A stretch of DNA of 64,000 bases from Zygnema circumcarinatum SAG 698-1b (GCA_037447605.1 CM074810.1:3134880-3198879), one strand, 5' to 3'; counted from the first letter of the stretch, positions 9,934-59,016 are shown. A program made the numbers and translations. Notes: generated by a model not told the origin, from the letters alone.

Positions 9934-10376
9934 CTTTTTTCGTCGGATGTACGGATGTTGATTTGAATGTACGAAGCGCGCGCAACACGTGGAGCGACAT
10001 GATTGGTCGCGGCAACATATGACGTGACAAGTATGTTTGGGACCGTGACGTGACGAAACGAGACGCGACAAAAGTGGAGTCCGCGGACGGCAGTCGGAAA
10101 TGGCGGGAATTGAAACTGACAGAAAAAGATAGGGCACATAACGTAGCGTGTTTCAGGAAAAATCTGTCAGTTTTAATTCCCGCCATTTCCGACTGCTCAT
10201 CCGCGGACTCCGCTTTTGTCGCGTCTCGGTTCGTCACGTCACGGTCCCAAACATACTTGTCCATGTCATATGTTGCCGCGACCAATCATATCGCTCCACG
10301 TGTTGCGCCCTTATACCTTGTAGACGCGCGCGCTTCGTACATTCAAATCACCATCCGTACATCCGACGAAAAAAAG
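9934..10376. mobile_element. Foldback-type long inverted repeat (arms ~9934-10123 and ~10163-10376, ~40-bp spacer)
   Basis: The arms are near-perfect reverse complements; the right arm carries a ~20-bp insertion. Spacer plus one arm recur at ~33415-33680. Confidence 0.85.
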
Positions 10377-10388
10377 TCTGTATCTATA

Positions 10389-10873
10389 CAGTCTAATCAC
10401 GTTATAGTGGCTGTGTCGGTCCCCACACATTTGTGTCACTATATCGGTAATGACCCATTTGTCACTTTATATATATAGTGACGATGTTTTTACATATGTT
10501 TTTGCGGTATATCCGTACGACTTTTATACCGTACATTGTACTTTTTGGGCAGTCGTCACGTGGGTAGGTGTGTACGAACCCTAGCGAGTATGTGTACGGA
10601 CAAGTTGATATGTACGGTCAAGTCGATATCTGACGATATTAGTCGATAATGTGTACGGTCGTAATATATTTGTAACGCATATTCCAATACGAGGGTGGAT
10701 AATATCGACATTTTGAATATATAGTAACAATCAGGGTTTTTCAACGTCATTATATCCGTAATGGCGTCACTACTGGCGCAGGATCTGCAGTGGTGCAATT
10801 CCGTTCCCAGAAAAAAAGTCAGTATATCAATGCTGTTCTTATAAACAGTGTCACTATTAACATGATTAGACTG
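10389..10873. mobile_element. Tc1/mariner (Stowaway-like) MITE, ~485 bp, inserted at TA
   Basis: TIRs CAGTCTAATCAcGTT-ATAGTG / CACTATTAACATGATTAGACTG flanked by TA. The empty site TGTATCTATTCTGAAAAG is present in the paralogous repeat at ~33681-33698. Confidence 0.88.
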
Positions 10874-11059
10874 TATTCTGAAAAGTATGAAACAGCATTT
10901 TTCGCAAAAAAAATCCTTTGTACAAGCTGCCCGGCGAAAAAGTACACTACATTCAGAACAAGGACACTGTAAATAGCATTTTCCCTTTTTTTTGACGTGG
11001 CAAACTATGATTGGTTCAGACTCGCAACGCGGTATTATGACTTTCCTCGAAGATTTGAC

Positions 11060-13560
11060 CGTACGAAATATGTACGGACCCTTGAGCCGGATTGAGTGGG
11101 ACACGTGGGCGTGTGCCATTCGCTGGGACAGAGCCCGGCTGCTGATCGAACGGTGATCTGCCGTGGTGCGAACTGCGCGAGCATCGACGGCGAAGATTCA
11201 TTGCTCGTGTGAAGGACGGCCACCCGAAAACGATCTCGTGGTGGACGGATCTTCCGCTCTGAGCGGATTCGGGCAGGCCGATATTTTTTTCTCGTAAAAA
11301 TATAATAAGAGGTAAAATCTGCCCGACGGAAAAAGGTGTGTATCGATTCAAAACGGTGTGAAAAAGCCATTTTCCTTATTAATCCTTTTTTGTCTATTTT
11401 GAAGGAAAATTCTATTTTCACACCTTTTTTGTCTACACACAGACCTTGTTCCGTCGGGCAGTTCTATTTTAGAAAAAAAAGGATTAACAACAAAAAATGC
11501 TTTTTCACAACTTTCTGTAATCGATACAAACCTTTTTCCGTCGGGCAGATTTTACCTCTAATTTTTTTTTTGAGAGAAAATAAACCGGCTTGCCCGAATC
11601 CGCTCGGAGCGGAAGATCCGTCCGCCACGAGACGAGATCGTTCGCGGGTGTGCGTCCTTCACACGTGTGGTGAATCTCCACCGCCGACTAACTCCCAGAT
11701 CTCACCACGGCAGATCACCGTTCGATCTGCAGTTGGGCTCAGTCCCAGCGAATGGCACGTGCCCACGTGTCCAATAAAATCCGGCTCAAAGTGGGTCTGT
11801 AGCAAAAGATCTACGGTTACAGCTTCCGAAAGGCGAAATACCGTACTATTAGGGGGTGTCAGACTTAAAAAATTTCAGTACGCGTGTTCGTAAGTTTGAC
11901 ATCAGAACGAGTACTCCAGTATAATCGCGATCCTCCTGCGGCGGAGTACTTTCGTAACCTTTTTTTTCGTAACGCTTTTCGTAAGATTTTGTTAAGTCTG
12001 ACACCCCCTATTAGACCAATTTAAAAATGCCACGTCCTTGATAATAACACGTGGCATATGATGATTGGCTGCTAATATGTCGAGCTTCCACAGGCTGGCC
12101 GGTCCAGCTCATAGGTTTGCGGAGATCTCGGGCTGAGGGACGCGCGCTCTAGCACGGGCCAGTCGGCATTGGCGGGACACGTGGGCACGTGCCATTCGCT
12201 GGGACCGAGCCCGTCTGCCGATCGAACGGTGATCTGCCGTGGTGCGATCTGGGAGTTAGTCGACGGCGGAGATTCCTCACACGTGTGAAGGACGCACACC
12301 CACGAACGATCTCGTGACGGACGGATCTTCCGCTCCGAGAGGATTCGGGCAAGCCGGTTTATTTTTGGGTAGTGATATTTCCACCCCTTTTTTGGATCCA
12401 AACACCCCTTCCCGGCCGGGCAGGTTTCAAAAAGGATTAAAAACGGAAAATGCTTTTTTCACACCTTTTTGGAATCGATACCACCCTCCATCGGCAGATT
12501 TTATTTCTGCGAAACAAGGAAAATGATAACCCGTCACCCAATTTGAATATCCCGCCTACCTGATTTTTTTTTTCACGCGTGCGGTCAATCGCAGCCGTCG
12601 ATTCCCTCGCAGATCGCCACACGGCAGATCACTATTTGATCTGCAGCCGGGCTCGGTCACAGCGCATGGCACGGGCCCACGTATCCCGCCAAAGTCGCCT
12701 CAAAAAATGTCCGTACAAATATCGTACGGTCGCAACTTGAGGAACCCAAAATTTCGTACATTAAGATCTTAAACCAATCAAAATTTTCCACGTCAAAATG
12801 TAACACGTGGAAGATGTTGATTGGCTGGGAGGTAACAATGACGAGATCTCGGGCCGAGGGACGCGCGCACTCGCACGTGCGGTTTGGCTTTGACGGGACT
12901 CGTGGGCGCTTTCCATTCGCTAAGATCGAGCCCGGCTGCAGATCGAACGGTGATCTGCAGTGGTGCGATCTGCGAGGGAAATCGACAGATGCGATTGACA
13001 CACACGTGTGAAGGACGGACACCCGCGTACGATCTCGTGGGGGACGGATCTTCCGCTCCGAGCGGATTCGGGCAGGCAGATATTTCTTTCCCTCAAAAAA
13101 AAATTTCAGGGAGGCGGGATACAGTATTCCAAAATGCGGTGACGGGGTATCATTTTCCTTGGTTAGCAAATAAAATCAGCCGACGGAAGAAGGTGGGTAT
13201 CGATTCCAAAAAGGTGTGAAAAAAGCATTTTCTGTTTTTAATCCCTTTTGAAATCTGCCCGGCCGGGAAGGGGTGTTTGGATCCAAAAAAGGGGTGGAAA
13301 TATCACTACCCTTATTTTTCTCTCCAAAATAAAAACTAGGGGTAAAATCTGCCCGACGGAAAAAGGTTTGTATCGATTCCAGAAAGGTGTGAAAAAAGCA
13401 TTTTTCGTTGTTAATCCTTTTTTTCTAAAATGGAACCTGCCCGGTGAAAAAAAGTCTGTGTGTAGACAAAAAAGCTGTGAGAATTGAATTTTCCATTTTA
13501 ATATCTGCCCGGCGAGAAAAGGTCTATGTGTAGACAAAAAAGGTGTGAGAATAAGAATTT
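11060..13560. repeat. Modular nested palindromic repeat array (foldback-like)
   Basis: A ~220-bp module (GTGCCATTCGCTGGGAC..GATCGAACGGTGATCTGC..GGATCTTCCGCTC.GAGCGGATTCGGGCA) occurs at ~11085(+), ~11580(-), ~12170(+), ~12600(- partial) and ~12890(+). It alternates with AAATCTGCCCGACGG..ATCGATTCCAAAAAGGTGTGAAAAAAGC sub-repeats in both orientations. Confidence 0.85.
11851..12009. mobile_element. Small MITE with AGGGGGTGTCAGACTTAA TIRs
   Basis: Perfect 18-bp TIRs. The flanks read as an ATT/ATT 3-bp TSD, or as TA/TA if the terminal A/T is excluded. Same family as 51074-51152. Confidence 0.88.
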
Positions 13561-13941
13561 TCCGGACCGTACTCTATTGTATCCCTTACAGTACAGTACA
13601 GTACAGTACAGTACTGTACAATGTCCGTACGTATTCGTACGAAGTGGTTTGTAGTCATCGGAATGGCCAGCGTTGACCACAGCACTTGCCTCGAAGCTTC
13701 CTCGAAAGACCCCTTACCGGCCACTCGCCAGCCGGCACAATTTCGGCGTCGTCGCTGGCGACTTTTAAGTCGCACAAAAACTCTGCGACGTCTTTTGGCC
13801 AATCGAATTCTCCAAAATCATCGCATGGAGTCGCCGATGAACGCGGTTTCTCCGAGACTGGCGACTTTTTGCCGGCCGGCAAGATGGACCCACGGCAGCT
13901 TTTAGTACATGCGAGGTTATCGAGAAAGAGAGTGGGAGTGA

Positions 13942-13973
<32 letters not shown>

Positions 13974-13980
13974 AAACGTC

Positions 13981-15417
13981 ATGGAGAAGCGCGAGAATTC
14001 GGAAGCCATGGCCCTGTTAGATTCGGAGGACAAGAAGCTCTTTGTGGGAGAGATGGAGCCGCGCGAGAAGGGAGGGAAGGGAGAGATGGGAGAGGTGGAG
14101 GAGAGGGGAGCGCTGACTGCAGCGCGCGTTCCATGGCAGACGGGGCTGTTCGACTGCTGCTCCATGACGGCATCTCCGTGGCAGTCCACGGACTGGGAGA
14201 TATGTGAGTTCTCCCGCCCGCCCTCCCTTTCCTCCCTCCTCCTGTTATCCCATCTCTGTTCATCTCTCTCTCTCTCTCTCTCTCCTTCCCTTTCCTTCTC
14301 TAATTCCCTTTCCCCCCTCTCCCTTTCCACGTCATCCCCATCGTCTCCACCCTCTTCTTGTTCTTCCGCCTTTTTCGCTTCGCTGTCTCCCTCCCTCCAC
14401 CCTCTGCCCTTGGCTGGCTTCGCCATGTCCTTCCTCCCCTCTCCCTCTCTCCTTTCCCAATTCCCTCCCTCCCTCCCTCCCTCCGTCCCTCCTTCCCTCT
14501 AATCCTCTCACTTTCCTCCCGCAGGCGCCGTCGGCATGTTTGCCCCTTGCGTGCTGTACGGCAGCAACAGGGAGCGTCTGGGCTCTGCGGAAAACCAGTT
14601 TTCCCAGGACTGCCTGCTGTACTTTGTCCTTAGCCTGATCGGAAGGATTATCTTCAAGTGCAATGTGTTCGCCCCCTTTCTTTCCTACCCCACCCGCGCG
14701 GAAATTCGCCGCAAGTACAGCCTGCAGGTGGGTTTTGAAAGATGGGATTCCGATATTTTGGGGATGAGTTTGAGAGAGTTTGCAGGTGGGTCTTGAAAGG
14801 TGGGATTAGGGTTGTTTTGGGGTGAGTTTGAGGGAGCCTGCAGGTGGGACTTGCAAAGTGGCATTTGGAGCTTGTTGGGATGGTTTTGTGGGAGATGGTC
14901 TTTTCGGATATGTGCGTTTGTTGGGGAAGTGGAAATTGGGCTTTTCTGTAGACTTTGGGTTCCTGGGGTGATTGGTTCGTTTGTGGAATTGGATTGAAAC
15001 TGAGAGTTCAGAGTAGCGCACGAAGGAAATAGATGGACAGAGTTTGATATCGAAAGATTGAATGGTCCTCCTCTCCTTGAAGGAGAGACGAAGAGTCCCG
15101 TTGAAAGTTAGAAGGGAAGAGAGAGAGAGAGAGAGAATCCCAATGCTGATGTGTTTGTATCTACTTTCCCTCTGCAGGGTAATGCGGAGCTTTGCCTCGG
15201 AATGGTGGGAGGGTGCTGCGGAGTGAAGGTGGACCCTCCCTCCGAGTCCTCCGAAGCCTTCTGCGACTGTTGCCTTCACTTCTTCTGCCACAATTGCGTG
15301 CTCTGTCAGGAGGCACGGGAGCTTCGCCGCAGAACTGGGACCCTTCCCGGGCCGGCAGCCATGGCTGCCTTGCAGGGCGTGCAGGTCATGGCTCCCGCGG
15401 AGCAGGCTATGGCGTAG
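13981..15417 (+). CDS. PLAC8 / Cell Number Regulator (FW2.2-like) Cys-rich protein; exons 13981-14203, 14525-14727, 15178-15417
   Basis: Motifs WQTGLFDCC, FAPCVLYGSNRERL, RAEIRRKYSLQG and DCCLHFFCHNCVLCQEAREL; canonical in-phase splice sites. Confidence 0.92.
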
Positions 15418-16395
15418 GGGAGAGAGAGAGAGGGAGTGTGGGAAGGGAGAGGGGAGGGGAGGGAAGGCGGAGAGGTCATGGCTCCCGCGGAGCAGGCTAT
15501 GGCGTAAGGGAGAGAGAGAGAGGGAGAGTGGGAAGGGAGAGGAGGGCGAGGGAAGGAGGGAAGGAGGGAGGGTGTGCTATTAGGGAGGGAGAGAAGGGGA
15601 AGGGAGGGGCGGAGAGGTAGGATTTAACATGATGGGAGTGAGAGTGTGTGTGTGTGTGCATGTTTGAAGGAGCGAATGTTTTATTTTCGGAAAGGAGTAT
15701 GGAAGATTGGAGGAGTGGAGAGGGAGGGGGAGGAGAGAGAGGGAGGAGGAGAAGGAGGGAGGGGAGGGCTATGTACTATAGTAAGGTGCTTGCGAAAACT
15801 CAGCCTTGTGTGATGCTGACAAGGATCTGTATGAAGAGTTCGTTGGTGTTTTATTTTCTCTCTGTTTTTTAGAAGTACTGAAGGAGGTGGTGGACCAAAT
15901 CACTTCCAGCTTTATTCTATTGTATGCTGTACGGACGAGGGGTGAAGCAGGACAATCGTTGCTTATCTATTCGAATAGTTTTACTGTTTGAGAATGAAAG
16001 TGGATGAGAGTGTTGGTTTCTCTAAAACTAAAAAATGTTGAGTGTTGTTTTATTTTTTGATCCATGCGTGTTCATCTCAGTTTCTGAGATGTGTAGAGTT
16101 GGGATTTCAACCGATCTGAAGCCAATCAGGCATTGCCACGTGTGTGCACACGTGGCGTGCTGCCATTGGTGTGATTCTCCCAATCTCAATGGAGTTTTGG
16201 TCTAAGAAGCGTTTGGCATCCATCGTCCACCTCGACAAATAAATATAATCAAGCGAAAACTTATTTGAATTTGCAGTTTGACGTTGTCAAAGCACGTGCA
16301 TTTCGGCCAAACTGGGAATACTATTTGCCATACTATTTATCGAACCACAGAAGTTGAACACCCACACTTAAGCAGGCACATTATGAGAGTCCTCA

Positions 16396-16619
16396 CCGGC
16401 GACTTTGAGTCGCTGAAGAACTCTGCGACGGCCTTACGCCAATTGCATCCTCCGAAAGCGTCGCAGAGCGACGCCGGCCGACGAGGTTTCCCGTAACCGG
16501 CACAGAATTCGCCGGCCGGCGAGTTGGACCCTTTTCCGGCAGCAGCTTGTACTTGACGGTCGAATGAGTGCAACAGTTCGTGAAGCGCAAGCCAAAGGGC
16601 AGCGAGAGTGAGGGAGAGA

Positions 16620-16658
<39 letters not shown>

Positions 16659-16830
16659 AGAGACAGACGAGGAGAGGGAGAGTGGAAAAAAGGAGAGAAA
16701 GAGAGAGAGAGAGGACAGAAGGAGAGTGAGAGAGAGAGGAAGAAGGGAGAGAGGGAGAAATCGTCATGGAGAAGCGCGAGAATTCGGAAGCCATGGATGG
16801 CCGTGTTGTTGGATTCGGAGGACAAGAAGC
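16396..16830 (+). pseudogene. Truncated duplicate of the PLAC8 gene upstream region and first ~19 codons
   Basis: 16396-16550 aligns with ~13755-13910. ATGGAGAAGCGCGAGAATTCGGAAGCCATGG..GATTCGGAGGACAAGAAGC repeats 13981-14038 with frameshifting insertions, then homology stops abruptly. Confidence 0.85.
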
Positions 16831-16982
16831 ACGAGCGCCACTTGCTGACGTGGCGAGCTCTCATTGGTTGGAAGTTCCAAGTGCAGTATGCATGACTACC
16901 CCCTAGGACTAACAATGACGTCACGCTACGAGTTCCATCCGTACGATACCGGGCCGTATCGCTTTCGTATCGTATTGTGAAC

Positions 16983-17490
16983 ATTCAATGGTTGGTTTCT
17001 AGCCATTGAAAACAACCGGTGCCTGCCAGCCATTGGATTCAGTGGTCGGTTGCCAGCCATTGCGTACAACGGTTGACTGCCAGCCATTGGATTCAATGGT
17101 TGGTTGCCAGCCTTTTTAAACAACCGATGGTTGCCAGCCATTGGATTCAGTGGTCGGTTGCCAGCCATTGGATACAACGGTCGACTACCAGCCATTGGGT
17201 TCAATGGTTGGTTGCCAGCCATTGCAAACAACCGGTGGTTGCCAGCCATTGGATTCAGTGGTCGGTTGCCAGCCATTGCATACAACGGTTGATTGCCAGC
17301 CATTGGGTTCAGTGGTCGGTTGCCAGCCATTGGATACAACGGTTGATGCCCAGCCATTGGATTCAATGGTTAGTTGCCAGCCATTGCATACAACGGTTGA
17401 TTGCCAGCCATTGGATTCAATGGTGGGTTGCCAGCCATTGCAAACAACCGGTGGTTGCCAGCCATTGGATTCAGAGGTCGGTTGCCAGCC
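16983..17490. repeat. 27-bp tandem array (~19 units) with 108-bp higher-order organisation
   Basis: Constant TTGCCAGCCATTG core plus four variant tails that recur in order. Confidence 0.92.
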
Positions 17491-20742: not shown

Positions 20743-22446
20743 TGTGCTTGGCCTTCACGGTCATGAAGGGAAGGATACTAAAGCGGTGTGGCCTTATGTT
20801 TTTCCGTCAATCACGGTACCTAATGGATTTAGGGCATGTGGATACTCTATATAGGGCAGCGGAGGTCTGGGATTGGTACCGTAGGCGGATTTAAATGCAT
20901 TGGGGAGCACAGCATGGTGGCGGTGGCCCGTAAGCGCCCGAGGTCCTCACCGGCATAAGGGAGGGATTGAGGATTACTTGCGGCACCGCAGGTTATCCGG
21001 TCCAGCGATTGGATCTGGGCACATTTGTTGCGGCGCCCTCCCTTGAGGTAGGTACGCGAGCTTCTCTACAGCGGCTTGTAGGCTCGGCATTTTGATGAAT
21101 TCTTCCCGTCGCCTGAAACGCGCTTCATCACGAGAAACCGACTCGGCGGAAATATGAAAATGTAAGGAGAGAAAGCCGCTGACTAAAAGCTCCTTAAGAT
21201 AAAGATGAAATACAAAAAACGGCAATAGCTGAAATTGACTTGGCGCTCTACTGGCTTCACATTAGATAAACCACCCCTTCTGAAAGCTGAACTCTTCCCA
21301 GCTATCTCCTTGGCCCTAAGCAGGAATGGCACCGGCTCCCCGATGTGAGTCCGCGAGGAAGGTTAACTTCTACCAAACAATCTAAGCCTTAAATACAATA
21401 GCAAAACCGTGGTAGGACATTGTCACGTCACGGCCGCACATGCTACGCCTTGCAAGGGCCTTATCCCGATCCTAATCTTGCGCCGTCGGATCCTCGTAGG
21501 CTTGCACGGATCCAGCACATCATTGCCGTCAGATCCGCCTCAGCCTTATCTCCATCCGCGTCCTCCACCGTAGGATCTGACTCCTCATTACTTGGCGTCA
21601 TGTGGGACCCCGTAAGCCTACGAGCGCCACCGACCTAGGCCGTACAGGCCTTCAATTTAACCCGACACGTGGCGCCTTCCGATTCGCCACTGTCCTCCAC
21701 TTGAGACATTGCTGACTCCGTACCTCGTCAGTTCTGCTCCGCGCGCTGATTCGCGCCTCGTCACGTCCCGATTTGTCGCGTCGTGCCACGTCACATCTGA
21801 CTCCGCCACGCCGCGCCTCGCCACCGACCAATGTCCGTACATTCGAGGTCCTGGCCTTACAAATCGTACCACTGATTGGCTCCACCGACATTCTGATGCC
21901 TTGCCTTGCCAAATCAGACTTGCGCGCTATACGCACACCCCTTAAAGACTTGTACGGTCGCCTAGACGCCCCTCCGTACAATGTGGACACTTTTGAGCAC
22001 ACCCCTCCTTAGAACTTAGTACCAACAACTTAGTGTACAACAAGTCCTTAACTACTTTACACTAACAGGGCCGCGGTCCGGATCCCCCTTTTGGAATCGG
22101 CCAGTCGTCCGTACAGTTACGGGTTACCGTTGGTACGGACGGGCTGACAATCGGACCCCACGCCGCGCGCGTAGGATCCGGCCGTGCACCGACGTACGGC
22201 GGCGCGCGCCGCGGAATGCGGCGAGCGTTCGTACGTTGTACACCTCTGACCCATTCGGGTCAGAGAGAGACACGTGGCAGTCTGCCATTGGACAGCCCTG
22301 CTTCCAATCCTCCATGCTGGTAGGAGGTTCAACGGGGGAAGCATATAGGGGCGAGGGGGACTGTCGTCACCCAACCAACGTACCGGCATACGGTTGCACC
22401 CGTGCCCAGGGCTGCGCCAACCTCTGAAGCTCTCTCTCTCTCTCTC
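20743..22446 (+). mobile_element. 3' LTR of chromovirus copy A (noisy, longer than the copy-B LTR, terminal ~65 bp missing)
   Basis: 20760-20870 and ~22110-22446 are reverse complements of parts of 29138-29861. Confidence 0.7.
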
Positions 22447-29136: not shown

Positions 29137-29861
29137 ATGTAACGACTGAAATCTACCCTCTTCAGCCTGCGCGGAATTACACACCAGCACTCAGAGTTCA
29201 GAGAGAGAGAGAGCTTCAGAGTGGGGAGCAGCCCGGGACGGGCGTGCAACCGTATGCCGGTACGTTGGTTGGGTGACGACAGTCACCGCCTTTACGCTTC
29301 CCCGGCCGAATCCTCCTACCAAAGATGGAGGATCGGGCAGGCTGTCCAATGGCGCATCGCCACGCGGTTCCTCTCTCGACTCGAATCGTCGAGGTGTATT
29401 AACGTGACGTAATGCTCGCCAGATTCTGGCGGTACAAGGCCAGCGACAAAGCGCCAGACGTTGCAGGCACGGGTTCAGCTTTACGCCAAGGCGCGCTGGG
29501 TCGACGATAGCCCGTCCGTACTAACGGTAAATCATATTGCACGGACAATCCGAAGTTCAAAGGGGGATCTCGCCGCGCCCGAGATCCAATCGCGGTAATC
29601 GACAACTCGGTAAGCCGTTAGTCCGTGGATCCTCTACGCCGGAAAGAGGGGACCTGGCCGCCGACGCTGGGCCCATAGAGATTATGTGTGGCGGCTCCCC
29701 ACCCAAAGTAAATCCGGGCTTCTTATGAGTTCGGAACTTGTGACCCTCCGCTGCCCTATAGGTATCCGGCTCTAACCGCTAGGGTACCTATTGATGGAAA
29801 CATAAAGCCACGCCTTCGGCTCTAAGTAACCCTTCCCTGTGATTGTAGCGCTTTCGCTACA

Positions 29862-33411: not shown

Positions 33412-34190
33412 GCGAAAACTGACAGATTTTTCCTGAAACACGCTACGTTATGTGCCCTATCTTTTTTTGTCAGTTTGAATTCCCGCCATTTCCGACTGCC
33501 GTCCGCGGACTCCACTTTTTTCGCGTCTCGTTTCGTCACGTCACGGTCCCAAACATACTTGCCACGTCATATGTTGCCGCGACCAATCATGTCGCTCCAC
33601 GTGTTGCGCCCTTATACCTTGTAGACGCGCGCGCTTCGTACATTTCAAATCACCAACCGTACATCCAACGAAAAAAGGTCTGTATCTATTCTGAAAAGTG
33701 TGAAACAGCATTTTTTGCCAAAAAAAACCTTTTTTTTTCTGCCCGGCGAAATCGTACACTACATTCAGAATCCGTACACTGTAAATAGTCGCCCCCGCGA
33801 AAATATTGGGGGGGTCTACTGTATGACATTTGTACGGACAAACGTTTGAGAGGACTTTGGCGGGATACTGTACGTGGGCCCGTGCCATGCGCTGTGACCG
33901 AGCCCGGCTGCCGATCAAATAGTGATCTGCCGTTTGCGATCTGCGAGGGAATCGACGGCTGCGATTGACCGCACGCGTGAAAAAAAATTCAGGTAGGCGG
34001 GATATTCAAATGGGGTGACGGGTTATCATTTTCCTTGTTTCGCAGAAATAAAATCTGCCGATGGAGGGTGGTATCGATTCCAAAAAGGTGTAAAAAAAGC
34101 ATTTTCCGTTTTTAATCCTTTTTGAAATCTGCCCGGCCGGGAAGGGGTGTTTGGATCCAAAAAAGGGGTGGAAATATCACTACCCCAAAT
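33412..34190. repeat. Second copy of the foldback/modular repeat family
   Basis: 33415-33790 matches 10120-10388 plus 10874-10977 without the MITE. 33850-34190 is the reverse complement of ~12365-12710. Confidence 0.88.
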
Positions 34191-35238
34191 TTAATGTACA
34201 AAACGTTTCGTTGGCGTGCGGACCGCTTCGGACCGCCGCAGATTTTTCGTCGTGTAGTGACGGGCAGCGTGAAAAACGTTACAGTCAAACGTTCCGTACC
34301 GTGCCATCTCTGGCGCAAGTGCCATCGACGGCCAGAGATTGTCGGACACGCAGCGGACGACACGTCGGGACAAAAAACGGGCAGAAAAAGACGCGGTGAA
34401 TTTGGATTTTGTCGATCTGACTAACAAGATCCGCCAAGCTAGATTGAATGTACCACAAAAATGCCACGTTTTCCAGTCTTGTCGTCAATTGTCACAAGCG
34501 TACAAGCCAGTACGGACATGTATGGAAGCATATTCCAGAATGCACATCTGTGGGCTGTATCGAAGCTTCCAACGGAAACAGAACAAATCACGGTAGTGGA
34601 GAAAAGCCACGTCAACGACTGCCACTTGTGAACAAATTGAACGTGGCACGCTGTGATTGGCTAATTTTTATTTTAAAACAGTATTCTTGAATTCATTCCC
34701 TGCCAAAGTGACCAGAAATAGAGCGGATCGCAATGAAGCCGACTAAGGCCAATCCCGATATGCCACGTGTACTTTATTTTGGCGTGGGACGTTGTTATTG
34801 GCCCAATAATAATTAGAACTAGTATCCCGCGTTGAAAGCCACTGTCGTCGTCGACCCCGCAAACCGACAAAGGCGGGGGAAGGCTCCATCAGCGGCGGGC
34901 CGTGTGTTGCTGACGTGTCTGCCATGTCAGAATCTTGCAAAATCCACAGCGAGGCTGGTCCACATCGTTGACAGCGATATGCAATAGAAAGGTGCCACGT
35001 GGCTTCCCAAGGGGTACGGCCACCAACACGCGCTTCACTTGTCCACGTGGCGATCGCTGATTGGTCGATGCGCCCGTCCACTCCCTACGGCCGGAGTCCC
35101 TGACCCGACAGACCGACATTTTTCACCGACATTTCCACCGACATTCTCGCGCGCCGCCGCCAGCGAAAAAGATGCCTCCCTTTTGGCCCGGCCCCAGCCC
35201 GCCGCCGCCGCCATGGCCATGGCCGGGCCCGCCCGCCC

Positions 35239-45708: not shown

Positions 45709-45960
45709 AATACAAATGAAGCCAGCTGAAGCGACATAGTGAGACTCAGTCCTGCATACAGACCGTGGAAGGAAATAAGGATCAACTGCTCACCTTCACT
45801 CAGGTCCCGTCAGGGCCTCCGGCAACAAGCACCTGGAAAAATAAACCTTATCAGAGAATAAGAAATCTTAATTCGTGATTATACCGAACATCACACGTGG
45901 GCTACTAAGAATTACGTCACCGCTCAAGGACAGCCAGAAATTCGATCACATCCCTGATGA

Positions 45961-46359: not shown

Positions 46360-46433
46360 AGCGATCAGATAACTTTGAAGACATTCTGTAAAATACTCAT
46401 CATTGATCAGTCTCTCGTGCTCATCACTTCGCC
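46360..46433 (-). ncRNA. Box C/D snoRNA with a D guide to LSU rRNA AACUUUGAAG(A/G)C (plant Cm1479-equivalent site)
   Basis: Stem GGCGA/TCGCT; perfect C GTGATGA, D' CTGA, C' ATGATGA and D CTGA. Guide GTCTTCAAAGTT; the +5 rule points to the C of AAC. Confidence 0.9.
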
Positions 46434-48056: not shown

Positions 48057-48064
48057 ATGGCGGT

Positions 48065-48112
<48 letters not shown>

Positions 48113-50029: not shown

Positions 50030-51073
50030 TTGCTAATTGGCATACAGTAGATGAGCCTGTTCAATGGAGGGATTACCTAAGCAGCTGCAAATAGGAGGGT
50101 GACGGCTTTTCTTCCTCTGCCATGGCTTTTTTGCTACATGATTGATAAGTCAATTTTTTTTTTTTTTAAATGGTTGAAGAATAGCGGCAACACAATTAAT
50201 GCCATTTTTCACATTTAGCGACAGAAAGTTGCTTTAGGCCTTGAGGCTATGTCCTTACCTCAATATGAAGGAGGCCCGTTTGCAGTTCTAGGAAACGGTC
50301 AACGGAACGGTCAACGGAACGGTTTAGTGTACATGTAGCTTCCGATTCATGCGCTTCAATGGAATGTGAAAGAAAGGAAGTTATCGAGAACGTTTTGCGG
50401 AAATGGCTTGTTTCAGGTTCAGTTTCAGTTTTTTGGTGCATCTTTTTGTTCTCACGTAAACTGATGAATTTAATATCGGAGGAGGCCCACTCTTTTGCCT
50501 CGTTAAAAACAAGAAAAAAAAAAACAAATAAACAGAGTACACTCCCCACTTGCAAACTTTAAAAACCAAAAGCGAAATCTAACTCTCCTTTCACTCCATT
50601 CAGTTCTGCTCCGTTCCGTTCGGTCACGTTGACAAGGACGGCTGTAACTGGATCACGATTAGGGTTATGTTGTCATCCCCCTTCCGTTCCGTCAGTGCGT
50701 ACTGAACTAGCGTGTAGCTTGTCTTGTCTAGTGCTTGTCTTCTTAAATTATTTTGCTTGTTGAGGCCGCATCTTTCACATGTGTGTCCACATCATTCTTT
50801 TTTGTGCAGTGCCCTCTTTGAAACTTTGGTCGCATTAACGAAGTAAAAGTATCAAGGGGATAAGCGCCCATCCTTCCCATTGTCACTGTGGCTTATTCGT
50901 GTGGTGGGGAAATGATGGCAAGGCCTTGTAAAGAAATGGATGCGATTATTGTAGATGATTTTTTTATTACGGAAATGAAGAGTCCCGAAGGGCCAACTGT
51001 TACGAAATGTTTCGAGGGTGTGTTTCCTCCTTGTTTATTTTTAGCATGGTAGTCGTCCAGAACATCTCCTAAT

Positions 51074-51152
51074 AGGGGGTGTCAGACTTAACAAAATGTT
51101 ACGAATATCGAGTTCTTAGTATTACGAGGATTTTTTAAGTCTGACACCCCCT
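51074..51152. mobile_element. 79-bp internally deleted MITE of the AGGGGGTGTCAGACTTAA family (duplicate at 53123-53201)
   Basis: Same TIRs as 11851-12009 in the opposite orientation; AAT/AAT flanks. Confidence 0.85.
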
Positions 51153-53357
51153 AATGTTGATGTTAGGGGTCCTCGGGCCCGCCATGAGGCCCATCGCCCT
51201 GTTGTACGGCCTTTCCCTATGTTGCGGCTGCCGTACGGCTGGCGGGCAGAATGAAATCTTTCTGAGAGGGGCGAGGGCGTCCCAGGGCAGCGCAGGAAGA
51301 AACTTACACCAATGGCAACGTGCCACGTAATATGAGGCTGACGTGGCAGTGTATAACCTTTTGCAGGAGCGGCACAGAGCCGGCTCTATGATGAGCTTCT
51401 ATGTTGCTGTTTCATGAGACAGCTAACTGGAACATTGGAAATTAGTTTCTGAAACTACTGAGACTAGAACTGTGACCTGCATGGAACCTCTGGCGAAAAT
51501 CTTGCTTCCGTACGCGCAGGGGTGGGCGGACTACTTTTGGCAATATTTCCGCACACATTATGATAAAAATAAATTTCTGGCAACTGCAGGGGTGCAGCAG
51601 TGTAGGCTCTGGAATTTGGGCGGTGGCTCCGTCTCCTGCAGAGAGAGAGAGCGAGAGAGGCACTGCAACGGGAGAGTGGGAGAGTGGGAGAGGGGGAAGG
51701 GGGAGGGGGAGGGGGAGGGGGAGGGGGAGAGGGGAGAGGGAGAGGGAGGGAAGGGGGAGATAGCGATCGGCGCAGTCATGGCGCGCATGCGGCTGCTCTT
51801 CTTTCGGCTGGACCGACTATGGTGGTGGCTGGCAGTGCTCTCCATTCTTTCTGTTCTCGGGCATGAGATCTCTCGCAGCAGCGGCTATGGTGTCGCAGAC
51901 GCAACGGAGCTTGAAGGCTTTGGAGACGAGATGGATCTTGAAGAGGAGGAGGACGACGGCCTCCCTCTGCTTAGTCCTCCTGTAAAGCCAATAAGGTCTG
52001 GATTTCACACAGACAGGGGTCCTCCTGCAGCTGAAAAGAAGAGAGAGGGAGAGGGAGAGGGAGAGGGAGAGGGAGAGGGAGGGGGAGGGGGAGTGCGGAC
52101 TTCGCCGGAGAGAGAGATTGAGGATTCGGAGGAGGAGGAATTAGAGGACGTGAGGGAGAGAGATATTGGTCGGAGAATGACAGAAGCAGTGTGGGATGAT
52201 GAAGAATTTGAAGGCGTTCCGGTGGGAGAGGAGACTGTGGAGGAGGCTGGGAAGAAGGAGAGAGAGTTGAAAAAGCAGAAACCGAAGAGAGAGAGCCTTT
52301 TTTCAAGAAAGTCAGGAGCTCAGGGTTTCAAGAGACCCTCTGGTCCTTTAGGGTATGTAGTTGAAGCGTTGTCAGGCCTGTTTCTTGCATTCTATGCAGT
52401 GAATTATTGGCTAGGAAGGAAAGAAAATGAGAAGCTTGCGCTGGCGTGGGCCGAGCAATTTGCTTCAGATAATGCGATATTTGAGAAAAATTTTAGTCTT
52501 TTAGGCTCAGGAGACGGTGTAGATGACCCTTTGATGATGAAGGAGGGACAGAATGTATTCAAATTCTACGCCTCAGGTCGACGATTCTGCGAGGGGCTGC
52601 TTGCTACTCTTGACTTGCGGAATCGACACGACCTAATTTCTGTTATGTGGTACAACCTTGTCCCCAAGAAGGACCTGCTCACTGTTGAAGTGTACATGAA
52701 TGAAGATGCAATGGATCCCTTCGTTTTGGCGGTTACAAAGCGCAAACNNNNNNNNNNAGCGTGTAGCTTGTCTTGTCTAGTGCTTGTCTTCTTAAATTAT
52801 TTTGCTTGTTGAGGCCGCATCTTTCACATGTGTGTCCACATCATTCTTTTTTGTGCAGTGCCCTCTTTGAAACTTTGGTCGCATTAACGAAGTAAAAGTA
52901 TCAAGGGGATAAGCGCCCATCCTTCCCATTGTCACTGTGGCTTATTCGTGTGGTGGGGAAATGATGGCAAGGCCTTGTAAAGAAATGGATGCGATTATTG
53001 TAGATGATTTTTTTATTACGGAAATGAAGAGTCCCGAAGGGCCAACTGTTACGAAATGTTTCGAGGGTGTGTTTCCTCCTTGTTTATTTTTAGCATGGTA
53101 GTCGTCCAGAACATCTCCTAATAGGGGGTGTCAGACTTAACAAAATGTTACGAATATCGAGTTCTTAGTATTACGAGGATTTTTTAAGTCTGACACCCCC
53201 TAATGTTGATGTTAGGGGTCCTCGGGCCCGCCATGAGGCCCATCGCCCTGTTGTACGGCCTTTCCCTATGTTGCGGCTGCCGTACGGCTGGCGGGCAGAA
53301 TGAAATCTTTCTGAGAGGGGCGAGGGCGTCCCAGGGCAGCGCAGGAAGAAACTTACA

Positions 53358-53397
53358 CCAATGGCAACGTGCCACGTAATATGAGGCTGACGTGGCA
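53358..53397 (+). promoter_or_regulatory. ERSE-like CCAAT-N9-CCACG plus UPRE-like TGACGTGG, ~450 bp upstream of CCDC47
   Basis: CCAAT-GGCAACGTG-CCACG, then GCTGACGTGGCA. The gene encodes an ER protein. Confidence 0.5.
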
Positions 53398-53826
53398 GTG
53401 TATAACCTTTTGCAGGAGCGGCACAGAGCCGGCTCTATGATGAGCTTCTATGTTGCTGTTTCATGAGACAGCTAACTGGAACATTGGAAATTAGTTTCTG
53501 AAACTACTGAGACTAGAACTGTGACCTGCATGGAACCTCTGGCGAAAATCTTGCTTCCGTACGCGCAGGGGTGGGCGGACTACTTTTGGCAATATTTCCG
53601 CACACATTATGATAAAAATAAATTTCTGGCAACTGCAGGGGTGCAGCAGTGTAGGCTCTGGAATTTGGGCGGTGGCTCCGTCTCCTGCAGAGAGAGAGAG
53701 CGAGAGAGGCACTGCAACGGGAGAGTGGGAGAGTGGGAGAGGGGGAAGGGGGAGGGGGAGGGGGAGGGGGAGGGGGAGAGGGGAGAGGGAGAGGGAGGGA
53801 AGGGGGAGATAGCGATCGGCGCAGTC

Positions 53827-56800
53827 ATGGCGCGCATGCGGCTGCTCTTCTTTCGGCTGGACCGACTATGGTGGTGGCTGGCAGTGCTCTCCATTCTTTC
53901 TGTTCTCGGGCATGAGATCTCTCGCAGCAGCGGCTATGGTGTCGCAGACGCAACGGAGCTTGAAGGCTTTGGAGACGAGATGGATCTTGAAGAGGAGGAG
54001 GACGACGGCCTCCCTCTGCTTAGTCCTCCTGTAAAGCCAATAAGGTCTGGATTTCACACAGACAGGGGTCCTCCTGCAGCTGAAAAGAAGAGAGAGGGAG
54101 AGGGAGAGGGAGAGGGAGAGGGAGAGGGAGGGGGAGGGGGAGTGCGGACTTCGCCGGAGAGAGAGATTGAGGATTCGGAGGAGGAGGAATTAGAGGACGT
54201 GAGGGAGAGAGATATTGGTCGGAGAATGACAGAAGCAGTGTGGGATGATGAAGAATTTGAAGGCGTTCCGGTGGGAGAGGAGACTGTGGAGGAGGCTGGG
54301 AAGAAGGAGAGAGAGTTGAAAAAGCAGAAACCGAAGAGAGAGAGCCTTTTTTCAAGAAAGTCAGGAGCTCAGGGTTTCAAGAGACCCTCTGGTCCTTTAG
54401 GGTATGTAGTTGAAGCGTTGTCAGGCCTGTTTCTTGCATTCTATGCAGTGAATTATTGGCTAGGAAGGAAAGAAAATGAGAAGCTTGCGCTGGCGTGGGC
54501 CGAGCAATTTGCTTCAGATAATGCGATATTTGAGAAAAATTTTAGTCTTTTAGGCTCAGGAGACGGTGTAGATGACCCTTTGATGATGAAGGAGGGACAG
54601 AATGTATTCAAATTCTACGCCTCAGGTCGACGATTCTGCGAGGGGCTGCTTGCTACTCTTGACTTGCGGAATCGACACGACCTAATTTCTGTTATGTGGT
54701 ACAACCTTGTCCCCAAGAAGGACCTGCTCACTGTTGAAGTGTACATGAATGAAGATGCAATGGATCCCTTCGTTTTGGCGGTTACAAAGCGCAAACATGT
54801 GAAGGCAATTCAGCGGGAGAATAAGGATCTGAAGGAGTTTGGGAGCCCACTTGACTTTTCTGCTCGGCGGAGATGGCCAGCTGACGAATTGGCGGTGATA
54901 AGCGATTCGCGGGACGCAGCTACAGAGGTCGTATCTGATGTGATAATCGATCAGGTGCGAGATGTCCTCTGCTTTCTCCTCCTTCACCCTCTCCCTCTCT
55001 CTTTCCCACTCCCTGTCGCTCTCCTTGGCCCGTCGGGAATTTGCGAAAACCACCACTTTTTGGCGGGAGGAGGTGCAATACAAGCCAAGGATAGGATTAT
55101 GGTAGTACTAGCAGTCCCTCTTTCTTTCTGTCTGCAAAAGTATTGCATGCCAAACAAGGCATAAGAAAGTGTCTCAGTTGATTTCATGCTGGCGTTGATA
55201 GGCATTTAGCAGTTTTTTGTCCCTTACTCATTCCTTAAAGCTGATACTTACATCAACAAGGAGAAATTTATCGTCAATCATTTTGGATAAACAACTAGCA
55301 CTACACCCTCGTTGAGTCGTGTATCAGAATAGAACTTTGCTCCATGTTCACAAGCAGTACTTTTCCTTCGACTAGTTAAGGTCTTTCCAATCCGCAACAG
55401 ACCGTCCAAAAGCATCGAATAGCTTCCGTTATCAAGAGAGGGATATACCTTTTGGACATAATCGCACTTGTCACTGGAATTGCTCACTGGCTTTGCAATC
55501 GCAATGAACGGTCCCATGTAGGAGCTTGAAGCAGTTTTTTTTTTTTTAGTCCTTGAGTCATACTGCTTTTTAGCATTTACGATCTGTAGAAAGCGAATTG
55601 TAGTTTAGTGTTTGTTGTGTTAGAAATGTGATTTAGGAGTATTTACTGCAGATTAGCGGAACGCCTGCACATTTTTCTCCCACCTATTGTAGCTGTTCTG
55701 CATAGTCTTTTGCCCTGCAACAAAGCTAAAACTTCCTGCAATTGATCGTTTTTACTCGGAGCCTTCATCAATAAATTCTGTAAACAAAGCAGTTCTGCAA
55801 GAAGCTTCGTCGAAAGGAAGTTTAGGCAAAGCATCAGCTTTCCCCTCTCTGTAACAGAGAATAGCTGGGCCATGTGTTGCAGAAAGATTCGGGGTGGGAG
55901 GGACGGCTGCCACTGTTTGGCCCGACATATAGTCAAGCTGTCTATTACCTTGTATGTGATTGTGAAGCTGATAAGGTTGTGGGGTTCTGGGGGTGGATTC
56001 GCAGCTCTTCGGAGACAAGGTTTTTGAGAGGTTTTCAGAATATTTTGTATCTTTACACTTTTCTGATCAATACCCTCATGGAACTCACAAGAAACTTCTT
56101 TTGTTCAAGTTCAATCTCCCATCCCCGAAGAAGATGGCAGAGCTCACGAAGCTAATGGCAGCCATCCCTGTCTTCATTGACAATGTGGGACGCTTTAAGC
56201 TAAGTGCCGCTGTAAGTGCCAACTCTCTCCTTTTTCTGATGATCGATTGGATGGTATCTATGCATGTGCTTGCTGCCAACTCTCTCTGTTTCTCTCCCCC
56301 ACTCTCTCTCTCTCGCTCTCTCTTTCCTCTCCCCCTCTCTCTCTCTCTCTCGCTCTCACTTTTCTCTCCCCCCCTCCCTCTCACACCCTCTTCCCTCTCT
56401 CGCCCGCTCCCCCTCCCCCTTTCTCCCTCCCTCTCTCCCTCTCTCTCTTCCCCTCTCTCTCTCCCCCCCTCCCTCTCCCCCCCATCCCTCTCTCCCTCTT
56501 CCCTCCCTCCCTCTCTCTCTCACACACACCCCCCCGTTTGCTGCACTGTTGGAGCCAAATGTTAGTGTTGACAAACGTGGGTCGGCATCCTCTGTCTATC
56601 CAGGGTCGCACCAAGGCAGATAGTGCGCGTGCAAAGCAGTTGGAGGAGGAGCAGAAGGAGAAGCACGAGCAGAGAATGGAGGCCATTCAACGAAAGAAGG
56701 AGGAAAAGAGGAGGGCAGAGGAGGCCCGCCGGGCAGAGATTGAGGCACGGCTTACTCCGGAAGCACTTGCAAAGCGGCAGGAGAAGGAGAGGGCAAAAGC

Positions 56801-56846
56801 AGCCAAAAAGGGCGGCCCCAAAGTCAAGATTTCGCGCATACATTAG
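53827..56846 (+). CDS. CCDC47: CCDC47 / DUF1682 ER membrane protein (PAT complex subunit); exons 53827-54954, 56005-56211, 56604-56846
   Basis: Signal peptide, acidic lumenal region with WDDEEFEG, TM followed by NYWLGRKEN, then FKFYASGRR, LRNRHDL, LHFSDQ and a C-terminal coiled coil ending GPKVK. A truncated duplicate lies at 51778-52747. Confidence 0.9.
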
Positions 56847-57744
56847 TCCTTTTCTTCGGCAGTTATGGTCTGCAGCCTTGGAAGTGTCTGCCCTCCGAAA
56901 AGGAGCTTGTCAGGTTGTCCCTTTCAAAGGGTTTTGTTTCCGTGTGTGGAGTTCATACCTGGAGAACTGCAGGCGGAAGCTTTGTAGGAAATGGCTGTAA
57001 AAACAACCAGCAGTGGTGCCAAGGAGGGAGAGTTGAGTTATGCAAAGGGAGAGAGAGGAAGGGGGGGGGGGTGTATTGAGGGAGGAAGAGAGGGAGAGAG
57101 GGAGAGAGGGAGAGAGGGAGAGACGGAGAGGGGGAGAGATGGAAAGAGGGAGAGAGGGAGAGGGAGAGGGAGTGGGAGAGGGAGAGAGGGAGAGAGGGAG
57201 AGGGAGAGGGAGAGGGAGAGGGAGGGGGAGGGGGAGGAGGAGAGGAAGAGGAAGAGGGAGAGGGAGAGGGAGAGGGAGAGGGAGAGGGAGAGGGTCAGCA
57301 AGTGGTGTGGATCCCATGAATTCCAGTGAGAGGGATGACGTTGTTTGAAGGGGCACTCCCTATGAAGTTGGTTCAAGAAGAAGCGGTGGATCGCTGCGAT
57401 GTTGGTAGTGTAGCTATGGATCGCTCGGGTAGAGGAACGTGGCAGAGCCATTTGGAGGATGCAGGCTGGAAGGACCATTTTTTGTGGAAAGGAATTTTTT
57501 CTTTTTTTAGTGAAGAGTTTCAGCTAACGTTCTTGTCAGTTTGAGAAAATGTTCGATGCTCTTCTCAGTTGTAAAGTTCTGGAAGCAAAGTTCTAGCACA
57601 CAGAGAAACCTTCATGTCGTCCAACCTGCTAACCTTTCTTCTCATCTAAGCCGACACAGGTTCCTATGCCGTTCCGGTTTGCTTCGCCATTGTCCCATCG
57701 CTCCTTCGAGATGCTTCCTCTTCGGGAGGGCTGAAAGCCCTTCT

Positions 57745-57945
57745 GCTCCCGCTACGCGCACACCCTTCTATAGACCACAAGCCCGCCTCCTCCCGCTACG
57801 TGCACATCCTTCTTCGACCACAAACCCTCCTCTTTCACTACGCGCACACCCTTTTATCGACTCATCCGATACGCGCACATCCTTCTTCGACCACAAGCCC
57901 TCCTCCTCCCACTACGCGCACTCGCTTTATCGACCACTCAGTTCC
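57745..57945. repeat. Degenerate ~32-44-bp minisatellite (CTACGCGCACA.CCTTCT..GACCACAA)
   Basis: Five imperfect tandem units. Confidence 0.75.
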
Positions 57946-59016
57946 ATCGCCTGCATGCCCTTTCGGCGCGCTTTGGCTGGTGGTGCCCGTACCGGCGGTC
58001 CCTCCGCTGGGCGCACATCGCAGATGAAATCCCTCACTAGCACATAAATCGCTGGGTTGCAGCCCAAAACCGCGCACAGGCGAAGCAGGGTGCAGGAGTT
58101 GNNNNNNNNNNGGGGGGGGCTAGCTAAGGCAAGCTAAGCCCTGCCTCTGCATAAAATACATAATGTACATACATAAAAACTAAAATAAAATAACTAAAAA
58201 TGTGTTGGTTTTTCAAAACATGAGGAAGGTTTAAAGCCCCCCCAAGCTTTGTATGCGTAAGTCCACCCTTGAGGCAAAAGGAGGCAATTTTAGAGGCTGG
58301 GACTGTGCGCTCTGCGAGCGGGCCGCTTTGGCTCGACATTTTGTGTTGTTCTAGTAACACTTGATGGCCGCGCCATTGTGAGAACACTTCAGATCATGAC
58401 TTTCAGACAAGAGGAAAGGTCCTATTTGAGACACAGACGTGTACAAAACACGAGTGAAGCGAAACGAACACACGAAGTGGGCATGTCGAGCGAGCTGTGA
58501 AAAACTCAAAAGTATGACGATTTTCCAAAGGGTTTGTGGTGGGTGCGACACAGGGGCTTAGCTGTGAAGTTCTGACGGGATCCGGCATAGTAGCCTAGGT
58601 ATGATCGCACCACGACAATAATTGTTAATTGTTAAATTAAACTATAAATTTTTGAGCGCCTCCAGTTTCCATCATGGCGTGTTTTGCCTACGTGGCGACG
58701 ACGTGGCTGACACGTCATCCTTTCTGAATTCCTCGTGGTTATTTGTATCAAAATTATTTTTTGAAGGTACAGTACGATTTGTACAATATGGTACGAACCG
58801 TACCGTACGGCCTGTCTCCCGCCTTCCCTTTCTCGGGGCGGGTCTCCGCCCTAGTGAAGGAACCCTGAGGAGGCGAAAGCCAATGGTAGACTGCCACGTG
58901 TTAACTCTCTCTACGTGGCATGCTGTGATTGGATGACGTTTTAAGAAAGGACCCTGAATGGGACGTCTTCAACAGAGAGGCGAAGAGGAGAGCTGAGAGC
59001 TTGGGACGGCGCAGCC

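What the first reader, a model, noticed from the sequence alone, without database searches (positions are those of the whole stretch)
9988..58932. Extreme enrichment of exact CCAAT-N9-CCACG (ERSE-type) elements with unrelated spacers
Exact matches on either strand start at 9988, 10282, 12016, 12050, 12774, 12806, 16122, 16151, 16849, 22273, 29346, 33583, 34642, 34749, 34783, 35046, 51309 (duplicate 53358), 58880 and 58914, so 20 sites. A uniform-base model expects ~0.12 per 64 kb. A few sites are copies within one repeat family, but most N9 spacers are unrelated while the spacing is invariant. The motif sits in LTRs, foldback repeats and gene promoters alike. It is the known composite NF-Y plus bZIP site of the ER stress response. 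Inference: unrelated TEs converge on, and spread, one host composite element.
Basis: partly seen in the sequence, partly recalled or inferred. Interest (0 to 1): 0.75.

Follow-up and report, generated by a model that had tools for sequence, protein, structure and literature searches.

The report
Algal genome packed with ERSE-type sites
A green alga related to land plants carries a known two-part DNA signal, CCAAT and CCACG exactly nine bases apart, about once every 3,000 bases in jumping genes and just upstream of genes, often as head-to-head pairs; it likely works as a general promoter switch for two cooperating host proteins rather than as a dedicated ER-stress signal.

Summary
The enrichment is real. 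Shuffles give 0.14; across spacings 0-24 only one other hit exists (N14). Eight sites lie in one composite foldback repeat and two in a Gypsy LTR; 13-14 independent contexts remain. Elsewhere in the same species 4 sites occur in 10.7 kb, so the density is not window-specific. A congener gave 0 in 29 kb of partly redundant, gene-anchored DNA. The full motif is RRCCAATSR..YGCCACGT, an NF-Y box plus a G-box-type bZIP half-site in one fixed orientation. The element itself is known: the N9 spike is published for Arabidopsis promoters, and HY5, ABF and GBF ChIP sites carry the same geometry, so the ER-stress label is not implied. Transposons amplifying bZIP motifs is also published. What stands out is the density, the pairs and possible species restriction. 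'Unrelated TEs spread it to promoters' is shown for only two repeat families; 11 sites are not shown to be TE-derived. Binding and function were not tested.

The parts
5418..5436 (+).
9933..10374 (.). Foldback repeat, part A: about 80% self-complementary, one site in each arm (9988 -, 10282 +)
10388..10873 (.). TA-flanked element with terminal inverted repeats inserted between parts A and B; the empty site is seen at about 33687
   Evidence: boundaries read from the sequence
10874..13560 (.). Foldback repeat, part B: arms in alternating orientation with 5 sites (10996 -, 12016 +, 12050 -, 12774 +, 12806 -); the two pairs sit at palindrome centres
12016..12068 (.). Convergent pair, inner gap 15 bp, in part B
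12774..12824 (.). Convergent pair, inner gap 13 bp, in part B (homologous to the previous pair)
16122..16169 (.). Convergent pair, inner gap 10 bp, about 600 bp upstream of a duplicated 5' fragment of the PLAC8 gene
16849..16867 (-). Single site just past the point where the duplicated PLAC8 fragment stops matching its parent
22273..22291 (-). Site in a Gypsy LTR copy, about 52 bp before a TATA-like word
29138..29861 (-). 5' LTR (TG...CA, followed by a primer-binding-site-like word) of a chromodomain Ty3/Gypsy element; carries site 29346-29364, homologous to 22273 with 4 of 9 spacer bases changed
33415..34203 (.). Another copy of the foldback repeat with parts A and B adjoining; site 33583 +
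34642..35064 (.). Four sites (34642 -, convergent pair 34749 +/34783 - with inner gap 15 bp, 35046 -) 277-681 bp before the ATG (35341) of a phosphate-binding-protein-like gene
51309..51327 (+). Assembly duplicate of the site at 53358; not a second site
53358..53376 (+). Single site 451 bp before the CCDC47 ATG (53827), with an inverted bZIP half-site 14 bp downstream and TATAA at 53401
58880..58932 (.). Convergent pair, inner gap 15 bp, 85-119 bp before the ATG (59017) of a spliced gene of no Pfam family; longest listed RNA-type contig begins at 58964

Best explanation
The sites are copies of a fixed-geometry composite, RRCCAATSR followed nine bases after CCAAT by (G)CCACGT, that likely binds the CCAAT factor NF-Y next to a G-box-type bZIP dimer and likely serves in this alga as a general promoter and open-chromatin module, not a dedicated ER-stress switch. 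Shown: sequence, spacing, orientation, pairs, position in an LTR, a foldback repeat and near gene starts. Inferred: the two factors bind cooperatively at this spacing; transposons that carry the module gain host-driven transcription or accessible, unmethylated DNA and amplify it; gene promoters keep or gain it by the same rule; head-to-head pairs act as a doubled module.
For: Flanks fit NF-Y (consensus RRCCAATSR recalled): two purines before CCAAT in 16 of 21 composite sites versus 42 of 145 other CCAAT boxes, S then R after it in 18 of 21 versus 45 of 145 (12 of 14 at each of the four positions after family collapse). Partner looks like a plant bZIP half-site: T follows CCACG in 19 of 21, G precedes it in 14 of 21, and only 11 of 21 complete an E-box. 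Orientation is fixed: 0 hits at N9 for either flipped arrangement. 19 of 66 CCACGT words in the window have an exact CCAAT at N9. Four more sites in 10,660 bp of 8 other loci of the same species, 3 with new spacers, expected 0.04. Exact site within 500 bp of 4 of 8 visible gene starts and upstream of a TATA-like word in the LTR. Tiles near sites keep CpG (median o/e 1.20, n=27) unlike the rest (0.77, n=143). In Arabidopsis the N9 spike is a major promoter class (PMC5499772) and ChIP sites of HY5, ABF1/3/4 and GBF2/3 carry an NF-Y-like co-motif that forms the ERSE (10.1101/2023.04.28.538684).
Against: No binding, accessibility or stress-expression data. 4 of 8 visible gene starts have no exact site within 500 bp. 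The congener B17 has 0 sites in 29,376 bp over 13 loci, including the CCDC47 orthologue and three phosphate-binding-protein homologues, which is unexpected for an old housekeeping module. One copy of foldback part A has lost both halves (L024), so copies do decay. Motif constancy among family copies is partly circular because sites were chosen by exact match. The CpG comparison is not matched for coding versus non-coding DNA. PMC5499772 finds the ERSE words enriched in tunicamycin-induced promoters, and the COBIND authors allow that NF-Y may be present only when bZIP28 binds.
Confidence: 0.55

Rival explanations
1. The sites are true ERSEs: membrane-released bZIP17/28 or bZIP60-type factors with NF-Y switch them on under ER or heat stress, and transposons carry them to couple their own activity, and neighbouring genes, to the unfolded protein response.
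For: Exact match to the ERSE consensus and orientation. ERSE words are enriched in tunicamycin-induced Arabidopsis promoters (PMC5499772); bZIP28 with NF-Y binds ERSE (review PMC5826264). CCDC47 is an ER factor, and the PAN and phosphate-binding proteins begin with hydrophobic, signal-like stretches (read by eye).
Against: One site per 3 kb is far more than a stress regulon would need (inference). The congener's CCDC47 promoter has none. HY5, ABF and GBF use the same geometry. No chaperone gene lies in the window and none could be fetched.
Confidence: 0.2
2. The sites are mostly passive relics of one or a few old transposon families that happened to carry the motif; the apparent singles are eroded copies, and most sites do nothing now.
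For: 10 of 21 sites lie in two repeat families, and parts A and B are one composite repeat. Absence from the congener sample fits a lineage-specific transposon burst. Two spacer pairs from different contexts match at 8 of 9 bases (22273 with 58880; 34642 with 58914).
Against: Upstream flanks of the 11 singles and of 3 new sites match nothing above the shuffled null. Neutral erosion should leave many one-mismatch and off-by-one sites: at the 166 CCAAT boxes there are 19 perfect CCACGT at N9 but only 3 with one mismatch, and none at N8 or N10 in the window, although CCACG holds a mutable CpG in a genome with CpG depletion elsewhere.
Confidence: 0.12
3. The fixed spacing reflects another protein pair: a bHLH next to NF-Y, a CCT/NF-YB/NF-YC complex on the CCACG half, or a transposase or recombinase recognising inverted bipartite sites.
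For: Fixed NF-Y/E-box spacing occurs in human LTRs (PMC12065363, PMC3730095). Convergent pairs at palindrome centres resemble recombination sites in layout. CCT complexes binding CCAC(A/G) is recalled, not checked.
Against: 10 of 21 sites lack an E-box, and the human E-box lies 5' of CCAAT, here the partner is 3'. Inner gaps vary from 10 to 15 bp and half the sites are single, unlike recombinase sites (inference). The T after CCACG points to an ACGT core.
Confidence: 0.08

Closest known systems
ERSE-I (CCAAT-N9-CCACG; NF-Y with ATF6 in mammals, with bZIP28 in Arabidopsis)
   Same: Identical consensus, spacing and orientation; promoter-proximal position; spacing spike already reported across 24,956 Arabidopsis promoters, where two of the 20 largest bipartite clusters are ERSE (PMC5499772, parts 1-2 of 4 of the text and passages read).
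   Different: Here about one exact site per 3 kb, in transposons as well as promoters, half of them in convergent pairs; no link to ER stress shown; neighbouring genes are mostly not chaperones.
NF-Y co-motif at HY5, ABF1/3/4 and GBF2/3 ChIP-seq sites in Arabidopsis (COBIND, bioRxiv 10.1101/2023.04.28.538684, passages read)
   Same: G-box bZIP site plus NF-Y-like motif at fixed distance, together forming the ERSE, mostly in promoters and found with bZIPs outside the unfolded protein response.
   Different: Flowering plant, ChIP-supported; the passages read report no transposons, pairs or densities.
MITE amplification of bZIP60 and PIF3 motifs in Prunus (PMC5950925, passages read)
   Same: Non-autonomous inverted-repeat elements multiply ACGT-core motifs in a lineage-specific way, near genes.
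   Different: Single motifs (TGACGTCA, G-box) in two related Harbinger MITE families; 'CCAAT' does not occur in the text. Here a two-factor composite occurs in unrelated class I and foldback elements with diverse spacers.
NF-Y composites in mammalian LTRs (NF-Y/USF in MLT1, NF-Y/AP-1 motif, NF-Y/MAF in LTR12; PMC12065363, PMC3730095, passages read)
   Same: Retroelement LTRs carry CCAAT boxes with a partner site at a fixed distance.
   Different: The E-box or AP-1 partner lies 5' of CCAAT; each geometry is tied to one LTR family.

Membership tests
ERSE-I | Exact CCAAT-N9-CCACG with invariant 9-bp spacer | tested here: met
   21 distinct sites; none at N8 or N10 in the window
ERSE-I | Fixed relative orientation of the two halves | tested here: met
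   0 hits at N9 for CCAAT..CGTGG or ATTGG..CCACG
ERSE-I | Located in promoters of ER chaperone or protein-folding genes | tested here: inconclusive
   1 of 4 genes with a nearby site is ER machinery (CCDC47); no chaperone gene in the window, none fetched; the congener's CCDC47 upstream 2 kb has no site
ERSE-I | Bound by NF-Y and an ER-stress bZIP (ATF6, bZIP28, bZIP60) | not testable with these tools
   Flanks fit NF-Y and a bZIP half-site; no binding data; the organism's bZIP and NF-Y genes were not examined
ERSE-I | Confers induction by ER stress | not testable with these tools
   Only assembled contigs of unlabelled runs were available
General NF-Y plus G-box bZIP composite | CCAAT box with NF-Y-type flanks (RR before, SR after; consensus recalled) | tested here: met
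   16 of 21 and 18 of 21 versus 42 and 45 of 145 other boxes
General NF-Y plus G-box bZIP composite | ACGT core with GCC half-site | tested here: met
   ACGT in 19 of 21, preceding G in 14 of 21
General NF-Y plus G-box bZIP composite | Occupied in vivo without stress; open chromatin | not testable with these tools
   Only indirect: CpG retained near sites
Transposon-amplified binding motif | Motif lies inside dispersed repeats | tested here: met
   8 sites in a foldback repeat also found at L023 and, decayed, L024; 2 in a Gypsy LTR
Transposon-amplified binding motif | Promoter copies derive from those repeats | tested here: inconclusive
   No upstream-flank similarity between the 11 other sites and the two families; genome-wide repeat status not tested
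Transposon-amplified binding motif | Lineage-specific amplification | tested here: inconclusive
   0 of 63 CCAAT boxes in the congener versus 25 of 192 here (Fisher 0.001), but the congener loci are redundant and gene-anchored

The most novel reading that the evidence does not exclude
Since its split from a congener, this alga has filled its genome with on the order of 20,000 copies of the NF-Y/bZIP composite, many as head-to-head double modules, used alike by unrelated transposons and by ordinary promoters to keep CpG-rich islands open. The ERSE would then be a specialised use of a general promoter grammar, and one that can be installed genome-wide within a genus.
Probability: 0.2. Interest if true: 0.7.

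Novelty: new variant of a known kind. Interest (0 to 1): 0.38.

Why it matters
The element is textbook, so the finding matters only through its scale and layout. If a whole-genome count confirms about one site per 3 kb here and few in the congener, this alga would be a natural test of how a two-factor binding geometry spreads through a genome and whether transposons drive or follow it, in the lineage closest to land plants. It would also give thousands of natural variants for asking whether the plant 'ERSE' is an ER-stress element or a general NF-Y/G-box module.

Tried and rejected
Double-element pattern in viral contigs: 0 hits. In metagenome contigs: 7 loci, first spacer 5, 6, 8, 9, 10, 13, 13, so no spike and no test of generality. 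Chromodomain search for related LTRs: 12 or more hits in B17, 0 in B7, but no DNA was returned. The query meant to sample congener transposon flanks returned mainly paralogues of one small gene (7 of 9 loci), so transposon-rich congener DNA is unsampled. B4 and B8 loci: 0 sites in 8.5 kb of mostly gene body, uninformative. RNA: no holder on record as RNA was listed; contigs of three runs show spliced joints for four genes in 44500-64000 but cannot give start sites or levels; the left part of the window has no RNA data. Protein atlas gave no answer. Rfam: only a snoRNA, nothing at the sites. Pairs as simple hairpin duplications: rejected for four of five, since arms share 1-4 of 9 spacer bases and 2-5 of 15 flank bases; 12774/12806 shares 7 of 9 and may be one. 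Chance and composition: rejected. Single-family origin: rejected for LTR versus foldback, not excluded for very old common ancestry. Ten literature searches listed no paper on this composite in algal genomes or on convergent pairs; most subscription journals are not in the library and no supplements were read.

Full report
Observation. Dinucleotide shuffles give a mean of 0.14 and a maximum of 2. Over spacings 0-24 the only other hit is one N14 site. The sites at 51309 and 53358 lie in a 2,039-bp block repeated at 100% identity across a 10-N gap; the gap-free assembly B2 has one copy, so there are 21 distinct sites in 61.8 kb. In an unbiased scan of all 5-mer pairs with gaps of 0-20, this is the top pair after GA/CT microsatellite words: 21 observed, 0.19 expected from the window's own word counts.

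Setting. The window is gene- and transposon-rich plant-type DNA. Pfam finds GRAS, PAN, PLAC8, phosphate-binding-protein-like, cytochrome b5 (desaturase-like), weak LSM and CCDC47 domains and Ty3/Gypsy protease, RT, RNase H, integrase and chromodomain. The best named CCDC47 hits are a lycophyte (60%) and liverworts (53-56%), with Chara at 47%; I infer a streptophyte alga close to land plants, likely a zygnematophyte. Contigs from three runs show spliced joints for four genes in 44500-64000.

Anatomy. The motif extends to RRCCAATSR..YGCCACGT. Two purines precede CCAAT in 16 of 21 composite sites against 42 of 145 other CCAAT boxes, and S then R follow in 18 of 21 against 45 of 145; after keeping one site per family, 12 of 14 fit at each of these four positions. 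This is the NF-Y preference as I recall it. T follows CCACG in 19 of 21 and G precedes it in 14; only 11 complete CACGTG, the rest being hybrid ACGT boxes or lacking the T, which points to a bZIP half-site and not a bHLH E-box. Flipped arrangements give no hit at N9. Spacers are diverse: mean identity 3.6 of 9 among the 14 collapsed sites, 1.8 of 5 in the inner positions. Perfect sites outnumber near misses: of 166 CCAAT boxes, 19 have CCACGT at N9 and 3 have one mismatch.

Pairs. Ten of the 21 sites form five convergent pairs, CCAAT-N9-CCACG, gap, CGTGG-N9-ATTGG, with gaps of 10, 13, 15, 15 and 15 bp; two of the five are homologous copies. Random placement of 21 sites in 30 kb gave at most 3 such pairs in 100,000 trials. 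The arms of four pairs share only 1-4 of 9 spacer bases, so they are not recent hairpin duplicates; one pair shares 7 of 9. Site 53358 has an inverted half-site 14 bp away without a second CCAAT, and locus L018 holds an N9/N8 pair.

Where the sites lie. Eight are in one composite foldback repeat: part A (9933-10374, 3 sites with the copy at 33415) and part B (10874-13560, 5 sites), which adjoin in the copy at 33468-33788 and in L023 and are separated in the first copy by a TA-flanked insertion. Two are homologous sites in the LTR of a chromodomain Gypsy element (LTR 29138-29861), about 52 bp before a TATA-like word in one copy, with 4 of 9 spacer bases changed. The other 11 show no upstream-flank similarity to these or to each other above a shuffled null; whether they are repeated elsewhere is untested. 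Exact sites end within 500 bp of 4 of 8 visible gene starts: PAN (-310), phosphate-binding-like (-277, with three more to -681), CCDC47 (-451) and the gene at 59017 (-85, -119). PLAC8 has its nearest at -1157 inside the foldback; the desaturase-like gene has one near miss at 43296; the Sm-like gene and the gene starting near 47470 have none. Tiles near sites keep CpG (median o/e 1.20, 27 tiles) while other tiles are depleted (0.77, 143 tiles); the comparison is not matched for coding DNA.

Beyond the window. Using an 85-bp MITE that lacks the motif as anchor, I fetched 10 loci from B2 and dropped the self hit (L016) and a duplicate (L021). The remaining 8 loci (10,660 bp) hold 4 exact sites, one of part A and three with new spacers, plus one N8 and nothing at other spacings 0-20; expected 0.04. 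Together that is 25 sites in 72.4 kb, which would extrapolate to roughly 22,000-25,000 in a 65-71 Mb genome; this is a rough figure from a small, partly intergenic-biased sample. One part A copy (L024) has lost both halves. In the congener B17, 13 loci (29,376 bp; L026 dropped as lying inside L013) hold 63 CCAAT and 43 CCACG words and no N9 site, including the CCDC47 orthologue and three phosphate-binding-protein homologues. Fisher's test gives 0.001, but seven loci are paralogues of one gene, two more are near-duplicates, and transposon-rich DNA was not sampled, so species restriction is a lead only. A metagenome scan for the double element gave 7 loci without a spacing spike; two AT-rich ones are of interest: L004 with three N9 sites in 60 bp, and L009 with an N9/N8 pair inside a 290-bp terminal inverted repeat. 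I take these to be land-plant DNA from their look; that was not established.

Mechanism. Most likely (0.55) NF-Y binds the CCAAT box and a G-box-type bZIP dimer binds the ACGT site at the one spacing that allows contact, giving a general promoter and open-chromatin module that LTRs, foldback elements and genes all use. The sequence facts are shown; binding, cooperativity, chromatin state and benefit to the transposons are inferred. Rivals: a true ER-stress regulon spread by transposons (0.2), passive relics of few families (0.12), another protein pair (0.08).

Comparison with what is known. The ERSE and its 9-bp rule are established, and the spacing spike is published for Arabidopsis promoters, with enrichment in tunicamycin-induced genes (PMC5499772; parts 1-2 of 4 and passages). 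HY5 competes with bZIP28 at ERSE G-boxes (review PMC5826264; passages). ChIP sites of HY5, ABF1/3/4 and GBF2/3 carry an NF-Y-like co-motif that forms the ERSE, with the authors' caveat that NF-Y may be present only with bZIP28 (10.1101/2023.04.28.538684; passages). MITEs amplify bZIP60 and PIF3 motifs in Prunus (PMC5950925; passages). Mammalian LTRs carry fixed-distance NF-Y composites with the partner on the 5' side (PMC12065363, PMC3730095; passages). A 2026 plant regulatory-grammar preprint has no mention of NF-Y, CCAAT or ERSE in its main text (10.64898/2026.07.22.740070; term search). Ten searches listed nothing on this composite in algae or on convergent pairs; the library is incomplete and supplements were not read. 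By sequence the sites are ERSE-I; by function membership is untested.

Verdict. A real and strong signal of a known element. The density, the head-to-head pairs and the apparent absence from a congener sample are the parts worth a genome-wide count. Interest 0.38.

Noticed in passing
window 50709-54796: A 2,039-bp block, including the first CCDC47 exon, is duplicated at 100% identity across a 10-N gap; assembly B2 has one copy, so it is a scaffolding artefact.
   Followed up: yes
window 11108, 11763, 12184, 12677, 33877: The arms of foldback part B carry CGAAT or CGCAT nine bases before CCACGT, a one- or two-mismatch form of the composite at a second, conserved position.
   Followed up: partly
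window 51069-51153, 53118-53202, 11846-12014: A small MITE family with TAGGGGGTGTCAGACTTA-type ends, 12 or more copies in B2; short and long forms sit side by side in L018 and L019; one RNA-type contig skips the copy at 53116-53199.
   Followed up: partly
window, non-coding DNA: GTACGG/CCGTAC is the most enriched hexamer (71 versus 20 expected), ahead of CACGTG (84 versus 27); it resembles the SBP/SPL site (recalled), and ACCCTA/CCCTAA telo-box-like words are also enriched.
   Followed up: no
window 18362-29861: Two oppositely oriented chromodomain Gypsy copies appear nested around an 830-bp gag-protease fragment of a third element (22530-23363).
   Followed up: partly
window 16371-16830: Duplicated 5' fragment of the PLAC8 gene with its upstream region (72-82% identity to 13730-14038), followed by a 27/54/108-bp tandem array at 16983-17490.
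   Followed up: no
window 46509-46601 (-): C/D-box snoRNA snoZ103 (Rfam RF00149, 66 bits) in an intron of a spliced minus-strand gene (44.9-47.5 kb) whose exons show no clear long reading frame, possibly a snoRNA host gene.
   Followed up: partly
window 35341-36519; L013-L015: Phosphate-binding-protein-like gene with a signal-like N-terminus; 12 or more homologues in congener B17.
   Followed up: partly
L009:1384-2639: Element with 290-bp terminal inverted repeats in AT-rich DNA, carrying an ARIH1 UBA-like gene fragment inside and an N9/N8 convergent pair in the left repeat that is degraded in the right one.
   Followed up: partly
window 1168-2100: A GRAS gene is interrupted by about 900 bp of CT and C-rich simple repeat within an intron.
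   Followed up: no
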